DNA of 40,000 bases from an uncultured Clostridia bacterium (GCA_947589445.1 CANQAB010000002.1:1-40000), one strand, 5' to 3'. Shown: positions 13,741 through 14,384, counted from the first letter of the stretch. A program made the numbers and translations. The notes: generated by a model from the sequence alone, not told the origin.

Positions 13741-13864
13741 TATTGTATAGGAAAAATTGAAGATTTTTGCTATACAACAAGGTTAAGTTACCTTGGGCTG
13801 TGCAATAATTGTAAAGCAATTTTGCACATATGGACGTCGAAATCTTTGATTTCGTTAACGTCCA
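13741..13864 (+). repeat. Left arm of a long imperfect inverted repeat flanking spoVG-like; it folds into three hairpins
   Basis: Hairpins are TTGTATAGGAAAAAT/ATTTTTGCTATACAA, GTGCAA-T-AATTG/CAATT-TTGCAC and GGACGT-CGAAATC/GATTTCG-TTA-ACGTCC. It matches the reverse complement of 14201-14321. Confidence 0.8.
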
Positions 13865-13918
13865 CTTTTCTTATAAATTTGCCCTTCAAATATTAAATTT
13901 ATAGGAGGATTTTTTATT

Positions 13919-14191
13919 ATGAAAATTACAGATATTAAAATTTTTAAAGCAAAAGAAAAAGGAGCTTTATTAGCTTATGCCAATGTTATTTTAGACAACC
14001 AATTTATCATTAGAGGAATATCTCTATTAGAAACTGAAAAAAACGGAAGATTTATTGGAATGCCATCAAGAAGATTAAGAGGAAATGGCAGACACTATAG
14101 AGATAATTGCCATCCATTAACTGCTGAAGTAAGAGAAAAACTTACAAAAACCATTTTTGATGCTTACGATGAATTTATAAAATCTGAATAA
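13919..14191 (+). CDS. spoVG: SpoVG-family nucleic-acid-binding protein
   Basis: MKITDIKIF...ALLAYANVILDNQFIIRGISLL...GRFIGMPSRR....YRDNCHPLTAEVREKL follows the SpoVG pattern (M.VTD....A.A....D..F......V......F.AMPS.R......RD..HP). Confidence 0.75.
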   Translation: MKITDIKIFKAKEKGALLAYANVILDNQFIIRGISLLETEKNGRFIGMPSRRLRGNGRHYRDNCHPLTAEVREKLTKTIFDAYDEFIKSE

Positions 14192-14200
14192 TAAGAAAAT

Positions 14201-14321
14201 TAGACGTTAGCGAAATCAAAGATTTCGACGTCCATATGTGCATATTGCTTCGCAATACTGCACGTATCAATGTAAATTAACCTTGTTGTATAGTAAAATC
14301 TTCGATTTTTACTATACAATA
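14201..14321 (-). repeat. Right arm of the inverted repeat (inverted copy of 13741-13864)
   Basis: The reverse complement is TATTGTATAGTAAAAATCGAAGATTTTACTATACAACAAGGTTAATTTACATTGATACGTGCAGTATTGCGAAGCAATATGCACATATGGACGTCGAAATCTTTGATTTCGCTAACGTCTA. The core TGCACATATGGACGTCGAAATCTTTGATTTCG is perfectly shared. Confidence 0.8.
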
Positions 14322-14384
14322 AAATAAGATGTGTTTTCTTTAGATTAGCCCTTCAAATACTCTAAAGAAAGGATTTTTTATTTT

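What the first reader, a model, noticed from the sequence alone, without database searches (positions are those of the whole stretch)
13741..14384. spoVG-like gene bracketed by roughly 122-nt inverted repeats, each a three-hairpin module with compensatory substitutions
Segments 13741-13864 and 14201-14321 are inverted copies, about four-fifths identical by eye, with a perfectly shared 32-nt core TGCACATATGGACGTCGAAATCTTTGATTTCG. Where the arms differ, the internal hairpins are preserved. The middle hairpin is GTGCAA-T-AATTG/CAATT-TTGCAC in the left arm and GTGCA-G-TATTGC/GCAATA-TGCAC in the right. A G.G mismatch in the first hairpin of the left arm is a T-A pair in the right. Selection therefore appears to act on intra-arm folding, not just on arm-to-arm pairing. 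Each arm is followed, in direct orientation, by a similar leader (TTTTCTT..A(T/G)ATT.GCCCTTCAAATA...GGATTTTTTATT..ATG) in front of spoVG and of the RusA-like gene. Possible explanations are an invertible or excisable cassette, an RNase III-type processing clamp around the spoVG mRNA, paired ssDNA-active elements, or a MITE-like insertion at the 3' end of the adhesin gene.
Basis: seen in the sequence. Interest (0 to 1): 0.62.

Follow-up and report, generated by a model that had tools for sequence, protein, structure and literature searches.

The report
Two mobile hairpin repeats flank spoVG
The inverted repeats around the spoVG-like gene are real, but they are two separately inserted copies of a small, hairpin-rich repeat scattered through the genomes of these uncultured gut Clostridia, so they are not a dedicated switch or clamp for this gene.

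Summary
Arms 13744-13874 (+) and 14191-14318 (-) are about 85% identical, share an exact 32-nt core and each fold into 3-4 strong hairpins.

The cassette interpretation does not hold. The arms belong to a dispersed 105-130-nt element (TGTATAGG...TTTTCTTAT):
- It has about 8 copies in this 1.26-Mb genome, beside core genes.
- It was found in 38 of 100 sampled genomes of the same bacterial family (uncultured Clostridia, Clostridium sp. CAG:508-like MAGs), from 1 to at least 32 copies each, often in head-to-tail arrays.

Seven homologous conjugative elements keep adhesin-spoVG-orf197 and the "leader" motif but have no arms. Each arm is closer to copies in another MAG (88-89%) than to its partner (84.6%). 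This indicates two independent insertions.

Across 95 distinct copies the hairpins covary strongly. Loops are C-GNA-G triloops on one strand, there is no target-site duplication, and 43% of copies sit directly after a terminator-like hairpin plus T-run.

The element fails the tests for REP/RAYT and classical MITE, no Y1 transposase goes with it, and Rfam has no match. It is best read as an undescribed selfish structured repeat, probably moved as single-stranded DNA (inferred).

First-stage notes of this scan flag similar hairpin clusters in other genomes. Read data were unavailable, so inversion of spoVG was not tested.

The parts
13735..13743 (+). T-run plus AT (TTTTTTTAT) immediately 5' of the left copy. 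This is the family's preferred docking sequence.
   Evidence: The left-flank profile of 82 copies has positions -8..-1 = TTTT(T/C)TTAT nearly invariant.
13744..13874 (+). Left copy of the dispersed hairpin element (TGTATAGG...CACTTTTCTTAT), sense to the operon. Hairpins: H1 13743-13777, H2 13778-13795, H3 13799-13828, H4 13831-13864.
   Evidence: Covariance-model hit at 137.2 bits. Folds. The site is empty in 7 homologous ICEs.
13880..13890 (+). Native ICE leader motif TGCCCTTCAAA upstream of the spoVG ribosome-binding site. It is not part of the repeat.
   Evidence: The motif is conserved in the arm-less homologous loci L145-L150. It has only two good matches in the window.
13919..14191 (+). 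ICE-borne spoVG-like gene (90 aa).
   Evidence: Pfam SpoVG E 6.9e-24. NCBIfam SpoVG scores 72 bits, below the 108-bit cut-off. Synteny with orf197 is conserved in 7 relatives.
14191..14318 (-). Right copy of the element, antisense to the operon. Its last base is the third base of the spoVG stop codon. Hairpins: H4 14203-14232, H3 14234-14267, H1 14283-14322. H2 has decayed.
   Evidence: Covariance-model hit at 138.2 bits. Folds. The site is empty in 7 homologous ICEs. The nearest relatives are copies in another MAG.
14347..14357 (+). Second native leader motif AGCCCTTCAAA, upstream of orf197.
14385..14978 (+). orf197, the conserved downstream partner of spoVG in this ICE family. Function unknown.
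   Evidence: It is 57-63% identical in six related ICEs and more distant in others. No significant Pfam hit and no NCBIfam hit.

Best explanation
The two arms are two independently inserted copies of a small (105-130 nt), gene-less, multi-hairpin repeat element. The element is dispersed through the chromosomes of one family of uncultured, small-genome, low-GC gut Clostridia (Clostridium sp. CAG:508-type MAGs).

The unit runs from TGTATAGG to TTTTCTTAT. It consists of ordered modules (H1, H2, H3, and a short or long H4, with alternative 3' modules). It sits next to a T-rich TTTTYTTAT sequence, very often the T-run of an intrinsic terminator. It makes no target-site duplication and can stack head-to-tail.

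One copy landed between the adhesin gene and spoVG in sense orientation. Another landed exactly at the spoVG stop codon in antisense orientation. The result is an accidental inverted pair around a gene that is native to the conjugative element.

Shown here: family membership, empty sites, independent origin of the arms, structural covariation, and the flank rules.

Inferred, at about 0.3 confidence: the element is a selfish, non-autonomous mobile element that moves as a folded single strand of DNA (an IS200/IS605-PATE-like or other strand-specific mechanism), using an enzyme that I did not identify.

Any effect on spoVG (partial termination by H4 plus its U-tract, a long dsRNA clamp, rare homologous inversion) would be a side effect.
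For: - Family: other copies exist in the own genome at C70, C49, C6, C5, C22 and C3, next to mraZ/rsmH, rpsJ/rplC, rpoB and rplQ. The exact 24-mer of H1 occurs in 116 contigs of uncultured Clostridia MAGs. The covariance model finds the element in 38/100 sampled genomes of the family and 24/50 genera, at 1 to at least 32 copies. Near-identical sets occur within single genomes, for example at least 11 copies of 155-157 bits in G102.
- Empty sites in ICEs: seven homologous ICEs keep adhesin-spoVG-orf197 with 55-80-nt gaps and no arm. Three of those genomes (G061, G024, G063) do carry the family elsewhere.
- Empty sites in the chromosome: the mraZ-rsmH gap holds the element only in this genome and not in 9 congeners with 88-95% identical MraZ.
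- Independent origin: each arm is 88-89% identical to copies in another MAG (L053, L055, L078, L107) but only 84.6% identical to the other arm.
- Structure: 97.4% of 2840 cells are paired, and 33/38 pairs show changes on both sides. No shuffle out of 500 reached this, and slid controls reached at most 59%.
- Strand asymmetry: G.T wobbles number 98 against 20 A.C. C-GNA-G loops number 171 on the top strand, 18 on the bottom strand, and about 21 in shuffles. GCGNAGC mini-hairpins are extraordinarily stable as DNA, much less so as RNA, and occur at ssDNA-active sites (PMC13037366).
- Ends: the left flank is TTTT(T/C)TTAT and the right end is a fixed TTTTCTTAT. There is no left/right correlation within a copy (7.31 vs 7.33 in permutations), so there is no target-site duplication.
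- Docking: 43% of copies directly follow a stable hairpin plus T-run, against 4% of control TTTTTTAT sites. One copy follows a T-box terminator.
- Arrays: head-to-tail arrays share the TTTTCTTAT junction.
Against: - No mobilising enzyme was found. There is no Y1 (IS200/RAYT) transposase in this genome.
- Y1 presence does not track element presence among relatives. High-copy genomes G019, G030, G031 and G024 have no Y1 hit.
- RAYT-like genes and canonical IS200 copies are not flanked by the element.
- Orientation relative to flanking genes is unbiased (16 sense vs 16 antisense). That is not what a strongly replication-strand-biased IS608-like mechanism would predict if genes are mostly co-oriented with replication.
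- The G.T/A.C and loop asymmetries count related copies, not independent events. The alignment used was also fitted to the model.
- All genomes are fragmented MAGs, so repeats and IS elements may be under-assembled.
- Movement itself was not observed. The case for mobility rests on presence/absence at orthologous sites.
Confidence: 0.8

Rival explanations
1. The element is mainly a cis-acting RNA or transcription module (terminator, insulator or 3'-end mRNA stabiliser, as proposed for REP and BOX). The copies around spoVG set its expression relative to the adhesin gene and orf197.
For: - Copies concentrate at gene 3' ends and convergent gaps, and avoid divergent promoter gaps (+E- 18, +E+ 16, -E- 16, -E+ 4).
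- H4 followed by ACTTTTCTTAT looks like a weak intrinsic terminator in the sense orientation.
- The hairpins are strongly conserved by covariation.
Against: - Sense and antisense orientations are equally common, and copies lie inside operons in the antisense direction (C49 rpsJ-rplC, C70 mraZ-rsmH).
- Presence is patchy (38/100 genomes), with bursts of near-identical copies and tandem arrays. This fits a selfish spread better than a conserved regulator.
- The loops are GNA triloops, which are much less stable in RNA.
- The terminator scan calls nothing in the region.
- Seven related ICEs work without the arms.
Confidence: 0.2
2. In the read-through operon transcript the inverted pair forms a roughly 130-bp dsRNA clamp that encloses spoVG. 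RNase III cuts the clamp, which uncouples or silences spoVG.
For: The minimum-free-energy and centroid folds of 13730-14335 pair arm with arm (-208.5 kcal/mol, z -17). The two sets of local hairpins together give only about -91 kcal/mol.
Against: - This is thermodynamics only. Co-transcriptional folding favours the local hairpins of the left arm, which is made about 320 nt before its partner.
- The arrangement is unique to this ICE.
- Inverted pairs are rare in the family: two distant pairs against at least six tandem arrays among about 100 loci. The clamp therefore cannot be the reason the element exists.
- No RNA data were available.
Confidence: 0.12
3. The arms are recombination sites of an invertible or excisable spoVG cassette, either by site-specific recombination or by RecA-mediated exchange across the 32-52-nt identical core.
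For: An exact 32-nt core (52 nt at 94%) in inverted orientation, 316 nt apart, is long enough for occasional homologous inversion.
Against: - No recombinase gene is adjacent. The neighbours are the adhesin gene, spoVG, orf197 and the T4SS genes.
- The arms are generic copies of a genome-wide repeat.
- Homologous ICEs lack them.
- spoVG is native to the locus and is not cargo.
Confidence: 0.05
4. The arms are ssDNA-active elements of the conjugative element itself (single-strand initiation sites or Frpo-like ssDNA promoters used after transfer).
For: - The context is a conjugative element: the coupling protein at 16045-17803 and the adhesins.
- GNA-triloop hairpins resemble ssi and ssDNA-promoter hairpins.
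Against: - Most copies are chromosomal and sit next to housekeeping genes.
- All seven homologous ICEs lack them.
- The two copies present opposite strands, so only one of them could act on the transferred strand.
Confidence: 0.03

Closest known systems
REP/BIME elements with RAYT (TnpA-REP) transposases of Proteobacteria
   Same: - High-copy extragenic hairpins concentrated at gene 3' ends and convergent gaps.
- Mosaic and clustered organisation.
- Structure kept by compensatory change.
- Probably handled as folded single-stranded DNA.
   Different: - The unit here is 105-130 nt with 3-4 different hairpins in a fixed order, not a 20-40-nt GC-rich palindrome.
- There is no GTAG head.
- Arrays are head-to-tail, not alternating.
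- RAYT-like genes in relatives are not flanked by the element, and this genome has none.
IS200/IS605-family single-strand transposition and its miniature derivatives (PATEs)
   Same: - No terminal inverted repeats and no target-site duplication.
- Hairpins instead of inverted repeats.
- A near-invariant tetranucleotide (TTAT) on the left flank, and a similar sequence (CTTAT/CTTAC) as the right end.
- Strand-asymmetric structure.
   Different: - No cognate Y1 transposase was found, and no co-occurrence.
- The ends of resident IS200 copies are unrelated in sequence.
- No orientation bias relative to genes.
BOX elements of Streptococcus pneumoniae (boxA-boxB(n)-boxC)
   Same: - A modular, gene-less intergenic repeat with optional or repeated modules and a stable predicted secondary structure.
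- The mobilising activity is unknown.
   Different: - Different sequence and module set, and a different host lineage.
- The element here docks on terminator T-runs and forms whole-unit tandem arrays.
- I did not compare sequences directly.
Correia elements (CREE/NEMIS) of Neisseria
   Same: - A small repeat of about 100-150 nt inserted in operons.
- It can be co-transcribed, and the double-stranded RNA it forms is an RNase III substrate. That is the kind of side effect possible for the inverted pair around spoVG (established knowledge; not tested here).
   Different: - Correia elements have 26-bp terminal inverted repeats and a TA duplication, and each single element forms the hairpin.
- Here there are no terminal inverted repeats and no duplication, and the long duplex needs two separate copies.

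Membership tests
REP/BIME-RAYT system | Short (about 20-40 nt) imperfect palindrome with a conserved 5' GTAG-type head as the repeat unit | tested here: not met
   The unit is 105-130 nt with 3-4 distinct hairpins in a fixed order and starts TGTATAGG.
REP/BIME-RAYT system | A cognate RAYT (Y1 HUH transposase) gene, typically flanked by the repeats | tested here: not met
   PF01797 is absent from the own genome. Eight RAYT-like genes in relatives have no element or module in the stretch fetched around each (4-6.5 kb, about 3 kb per side except one at a contig end). There is no co-occurrence.
REP/BIME-RAYT system | Many extragenic copies, enriched at gene 3' ends | tested here: met
   1 to at least 32 copies per genome. 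Contexts are +E- 18, +E+ 16, -E- 16, -E+ 4.
Classical MITE (DDE-transposon derivative) | Terminal inverted repeats | tested here: not met
   The ends are TGTATAGGAAAAATCG... and ...CCACTTTTCTTAT. By my own reading of the consensus, only a 10/13 AT-rich resemblance exists between the 5' end and the reverse complement of the 3' end (sequences).
Classical MITE (DDE-transposon derivative) | Target-site duplication that varies from copy to copy | tested here: not met
   The right end is a fixed TTTTCTTAT in 81/95 copies. The left-flank 9-mer is no more like its own right end than like a permuted one (7.31 vs 7.33).
IS200/IS605-derived PATE | No terminal inverted repeats or target-site duplication; insertion 3' of a specific short sequence; hairpins near the ends | tested here: met
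   The left flank at -4..-1 is TTAT in at least 76/82 copies. The right end is CTTAT/CTTAC. Hairpins H1 and H4 lie next to the ends.
IS200/IS605-derived PATE | A cognate Y1 transposase, or an autonomous parent with the same ends | tested here: not met
   None in the own genome. The ends of IS200-like copies in relatives give only weak covariance-model scores (at most 24 bits) and show no sequence similarity. High-copy genomes exist without any Y1 hit.
IS200/IS605-derived PATE | Strand-specific activity (one strand folds and is cut) | tested here: inconclusive
   G.T 98 vs A.C 20, and top-strand cGNAg loops 171 vs 18, favour one strand. The copies are related, however, and orientation relative to genes is unbiased.
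Invertible DNA switch (inverton) | Inverted repeats served by a nearby site-specific recombinase; both orientations present in a population | not testable with these tools
   No recombinase domain was found in the neighbouring ORFs. The arms are absent from 7 homologous ICEs, which argues against a dedicated switch.
Integron gene cassette / attC | attC sites in direct orientation after each cassette, with paired RYYYAAC...GTTRRRY cores and an IntI integrase | tested here: not met
   The arms are inverted, not direct. By my own reading, only a single GTTAAGT word occurs in H2 and it has no inverse core partner (sequence). IntI was not searched for.
Any Rfam RNA family | A match to a curated covariance model | tested here: not met
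   Nothing above chance in 13000-15200 (best E 1.8, far below gathering scores). Nothing for six other loci carrying short, long, variant and tandem copies.

The most novel reading that the evidence does not exclude
The family is a previously unrecognised type of single-strand-DNA mobile element. It consists of a chain of GNA-triloop mini-hairpins that recognises the 'hairpin + T-run' shape of intrinsic terminators, which mimics its own right end. It inserts there without duplication. It is driven by a host or unknown enzyme, not by a Y1 transposase. Because it can land on either strand, pairs such as the one around spoVG would create new long dsRNA clamps and recombination substrates inside operons and mobile elements.
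Probability: 0.2. Interest if true: 0.65.

Novelty: new variant of a known kind. Interest (0 to 1): 0.4.

Why it matters
For this locus the result is deflationary. There is no dedicated spoVG cassette, switch or processing signal, only two hitch-hiking repeats.

The family behind them is more interesting. It is an apparently undescribed, abundant, structurally constrained repeat in a large group of uncultured human and animal gut Clostridia with very small genomes. It has clean rules: a fixed right end, a T-run/terminator docking site, no duplication, tandem stacking and one-strand GNA triloops. It has no recognisable transposase.

Such elements matter in several practical ways. They break MAG assemblies and confuse sRNA and terminator prediction. 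They can alter operon expression, and they offer a tractable case for how gene-less hairpin repeats spread.

If the terminator-mimicry idea holds, it would explain why small repeats in many bacteria pile up just behind genes.

Tried and rejected
- Plasmid database, blastn of 13700-14400: no match.
- Rfam, on the region and on six other copies: no family.
- TnpB or IS605 next to the variant copies in C6, C22 and C21: the neighbours are ordinary genes (a surface protein, hemolysin-III-like, an acyl-CoA ligase, rplQ). The PF07282 hit in the genome is sub-threshold and lies elsewhere.
- Y1/RAYT as the mobiliser: absent from the own genome, no co-occurrence, and no elements flanking RAYT-like or IS200 genes.
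- Search for an autonomous form between inverted copies (G016:C6, G006:C1): only hpf, recO and era lie between them.
- H1 pattern search in four high-copy genomes, to find solo left ends: it returned only the known copies of G102.
- Target-site duplication: rejected by the permutation test. The C70 copy does show an 8-nt match between its left flank and right end.
- Sigma-70 promoter and terminator scan of 13400-14700: no terminator called and nothing above shuffles.
- Literature: no paper on repeats of CAG-508-type Clostridia was found.

Full report
**1. The observation**

The window is contig C2:1-40000 of a 1.26-Mb, 26% GC, 96-contig genome. The region lies in a conjugative element. It carries SpaA/thioester-domain adhesins at 9232-13715, a split T4SS coupling protein at 16045-17803, and a sigma/anti-sigma pair.

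- The ORF 13919-14191 is SpoVG-like: Pfam E 6.9e-24, and below the NCBIfam equivalog cut-off.
- It is bracketed by inverted arms. The repeat finder gives three collinear inverted segments of 94%, 82% and 81%. blastn gives 86% over 137 nt.
- The 32-nt core is exact on both strands, with 0 expected by chance.
- Each arm folds into a chain of local hairpins with z-scores of -6.4 to -10.2, as RNA or DNA and on either strand.

**2. The arms are not unique**

- A search of the whole genome found further copies at C70:2917-3043, C49:8741-8864, C6, C5, C22 and C3.
- Their neighbours are housekeeping genes: mraZ/rsmH, rpsJ/rplC, rpoB, rnr/secG and rplQ.
- Among 60 relatives, 26 had matches, up to 26 per genome. 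Partial hits corresponded to modules 1-45, 1-59, 1-98 and 96-141.
- An exact 24-mer from hairpin H1 occurs in 116 contigs of public MAGs labelled uncultured Clostridia/Clostridium, including Clostridium sp. CAG:508.
- A covariance model built from 22 long-form copies found the element in 38 of 100 sampled genomes of the same family and in 24 of 50 genera. Counts ran from 1 to at least 32 per genome.
- Some genomes hold sets of near-identical copies, for example at least 11 copies at 155-157 bits in G102.
- Rfam has nothing matching any variant.

**3. Anatomy of the family**

The consensus is:

TTTTYTTAT | TGTATAGGAAAAATCGAAGATTTTTGCTATACAA (H1) CAAGGTTAAGTTACCTT (H2) GGGCT GTGCATATTTGCGAAGCAAAATGCAC (H3) AT GTGGCGAAGCCAC (short H4) or GTGCGTCGAAAGCTTTGCTTTCGCTAACGCAC (long H4, the type in the window) then (A/C)(A/C)TTTTCTTAT.

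- Alternative 3' modules and an H1 with a roughly 30-nt loop insertion exist.
- Solo H1 copies occur.
- Whole units stack head-to-tail and share the TTTTCTTAT junction (L041 x3, L037, L044, L029, L046, L184 x3).

**4. The structure is under selection**

On 95 distinct copies aligned to the model:
- 97.4% of 2840 cells form standard pairs;
- 33 of 38 pairs show changes on both sides;
- none of 500 column shuffles reaches this, and sliding the partners by 1-3 columns drops pairing to 31-59%.

The caveats are that the alignment is fitted to the model and the copies are related.

G.T/T.G wobbles (98) outnumber A.C/C.A (20). The loops are C-GNA-G on the top strand: 171 occurrences, against 18 on the bottom strand and about 21 in shuffles. 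According to the mini-hairpin review, GCGNAGC hairpins are extraordinarily stable as DNA and far less so as RNA, and they occur at ssDNA-active sites (G4 origin, RSF1010 ssiA, N4 promoters) (PMC13037366). This points to one folded DNA strand, but it remains an inference.

**5. Where the element sits**

- The nine bases before TGTATAGG are TTTT(T/C)TTAT almost invariably.
- The right end is a fixed TTTTCTTAT (81/95) or ...TAC (8/95).
- The left 9-mer is no more similar to its own right end than to a permuted one (7.31 vs 7.33). There is therefore no target-site duplication, and the right end belongs to the element.
- In 33 of 77 non-tandem copies (43%), a stable hairpin (at or below -8 kcal/mol) lies directly before the T-run. 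The figure for control TTTTTTAT sites in the same loci is 4.3%.
- Examples include ordinary terminators, a T-box leader terminator and a tRNA 3' end.
- Contexts: convergent 18, co-directional sense 16, co-directional antisense 16, divergent 4. The element favours gene 3' ends and shows no orientation preference relative to transcription.

**6. The spoVG locus in relatives**

orf197 homologues (57-63% identity in the six closest) were found in related genomes. In seven of them a spoVG homologue lies immediately upstream, preceded in six by the adhesin gene.

- The gaps are 55-80 nt and contain no copy of the element (blastn, E up to 0.01).
- The window's gaps are about 130 nt longer at each side.
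- The 'leader' (TTGCCCTTCAAA ... AGGAGG) is present before both genes in the six closest arm-less relatives (L145-L150). It is therefore ancestral ICE sequence, not part of the repeat. In the window it occurs only at these two places.
- The empty upstream sites read ...(C/T)TAT|AAAT(T)GCCC. The filled site reads ...TTTTTTTAT|[element ...TTTTCTTAT]|AAATTTGCCC.
- On the other side the element's last base coincides with the third base of the spoVG stop codon (TCTGAATA|ATAAGAAAA...). The empty site of L145 reads GAAGAATA|ATTAAG, so the stop codon is preserved.
- Three of these genomes (G061, G024, G063) carry the family elsewhere yet have empty ICE sites.

A second, closer presence/absence case comes from the mraZ-rsmH gap. 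It carries the element in this genome only, and not in nine congeners with 88-95% identical MraZ.

Each arm is 88-89% identical to copies in another MAG (L053, L055, L078, L107) and only 84.6% identical to the other arm. The arms are therefore two independent insertions of one subfamily, not a duplication of each other.

**7. Mechanism**

Shown: the element is a dispersed, structurally constrained repeat that is polymorphic for insertion.

Inferred: it is a selfish non-autonomous mobile element. The best-fitting known mechanism is single-strand 'peel and paste' of the IS200/IS605-PATE type. The features that fit are the conserved flank TTAT, the fixed right end, the lack of terminal inverted repeats or duplication, the hairpins near the ends, and the one-strand bias. 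Tandem arrays follow naturally, because the right end re-creates the docking sequence.

The enzyme is missing, however:
- PF01797 is absent from this genome.
- It does not co-occur with the element among relatives. High-copy G019, G030, G031 and G024 have no hit, while many element-free genomes do.
- Eight RAYT-like genes and six IS200 copies are not flanked by the element.
- A look between inverted copies found only housekeeping genes.

I therefore put about 0.3 on the ssDNA/HUH-like route and leave the mobiliser unknown.

**8. Consequences for spoVG (not tested)**

- In a read-through transcript the thermodynamic optimum is an arm-arm duplex of about 130 bp enclosing spoVG (-208.5 kcal/mol, z -17). 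This would be an RNase III substrate, but co-transcriptional folding favours the local hairpins.
- The sense-oriented left copy ends in H4 plus ACUUUUCUU, a weak terminator-like shape. The simple scan does not call it.
- The 32-52-nt identical core could support rare homologous inversion.

**9. Comparison and novelty**

The element works like REP/BIME, BOX or PATE repeats, but it fails the tested defining features of REP-RAYT and classical MITEs and lacks the transposase required for a PATE (see the membership table). No paper on such repeats in these bacteria turned up.

First-stage notes of this scan describe look-alike hairpin clusters in other genomes. A follow-up on Alistipes describes an analogous stop-codon-docked repeat. 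Those are unchecked leads, not evidence.

**Verdict.** The finding as framed (a special spoVG cassette) is ordinary. The underlying repeat family is a moderately interesting, apparently undescribed variant of small structured bacterial repeats.

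Noticed in passing
window 17357-17390 (and ORFs 16045-17385 / 17357-17803): The T4SS coupling-protein gene is split. Frame 0 reads ATA CGG TAA, and the Pfam T4SS-DNA_transf/TraG-D_C domains continue in the +1 frame. 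This matches another first-stage note (e1-2478396), which says all frame breaks in this element sit on CGG. It could be programmed +1 frameshifting, a recoded CGG, or decay.
   Followed up: partly
G000:C70 about 2900-3400 and loci L174-L183 (mraZ-rsmH gap): The mraZ-rsmH intergenic region of this genus is packed with many copies of a 9-mer, (A/T)ACAAAAGA, at roughly 10-25-nt spacing. The number of copies varies between species. It may be a protein-binding array (MraZ?).
   Followed up: no
L178 (G003), mraZ-rsmH gap, about 1990-2020: At the same gap where G000 carries a full element, G003 has only a mini-palindrome, TTGTATAGAACTCTATACAA. This is the foot of hairpin H1 without its inner stem. 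It may be a footprint or a minimal solo-H1 form.
   Followed up: no
L035 1738-2064: A copy of the element sits directly after the terminator of a T-box leader (Rfam T-box at 72.8 bits, below the gathering score but E 3e-14). That places it between a riboswitch-like attenuator and its regulated gene.
   Followed up: no
window 13880-13890 and 14347-14357; L145-L150: The motif TTGCCCTTCAAA lies 15-25 nt upstream of the ribosome-binding sites of both spoVG and orf197. It is conserved in the six closest homologous ICEs and occurs nowhere else in the window. It may be an operator or RNA-binding site, perhaps for SpoVG itself.
   Followed up: partly
G000:C6:22038-22185, C22:120-268, C21:8207-8242, C3:26408-26555; L012, L013: A variant of the element has a roughly 30-nt insertion in the H1 loop that contains TTGACC 18 nt before TATACA (promoter-like). 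It also has a different, GC-richer 3' module (...CCGAGCGAAGCGAGTGGCATGTATTTCGC...GCGAAATGCCTTTCTTAT).
   Followed up: no
G000:C49:9981-10106 (-): A second SpoVG-like fragment (48% identity over 44 aa) runs off the end of contig C49, about 1.1 kb from the C49 copy of the element. It is probably the chromosomal spoVG.
   Followed up: no
L145 about 1060-1130: In one homologous ICE the adhesin-spoVG gap carries an (ATAATATA)n-like microsatellite instead of the hairpin element. This gap is therefore a hot spot for different kinds of insertions.
   Followed up: no
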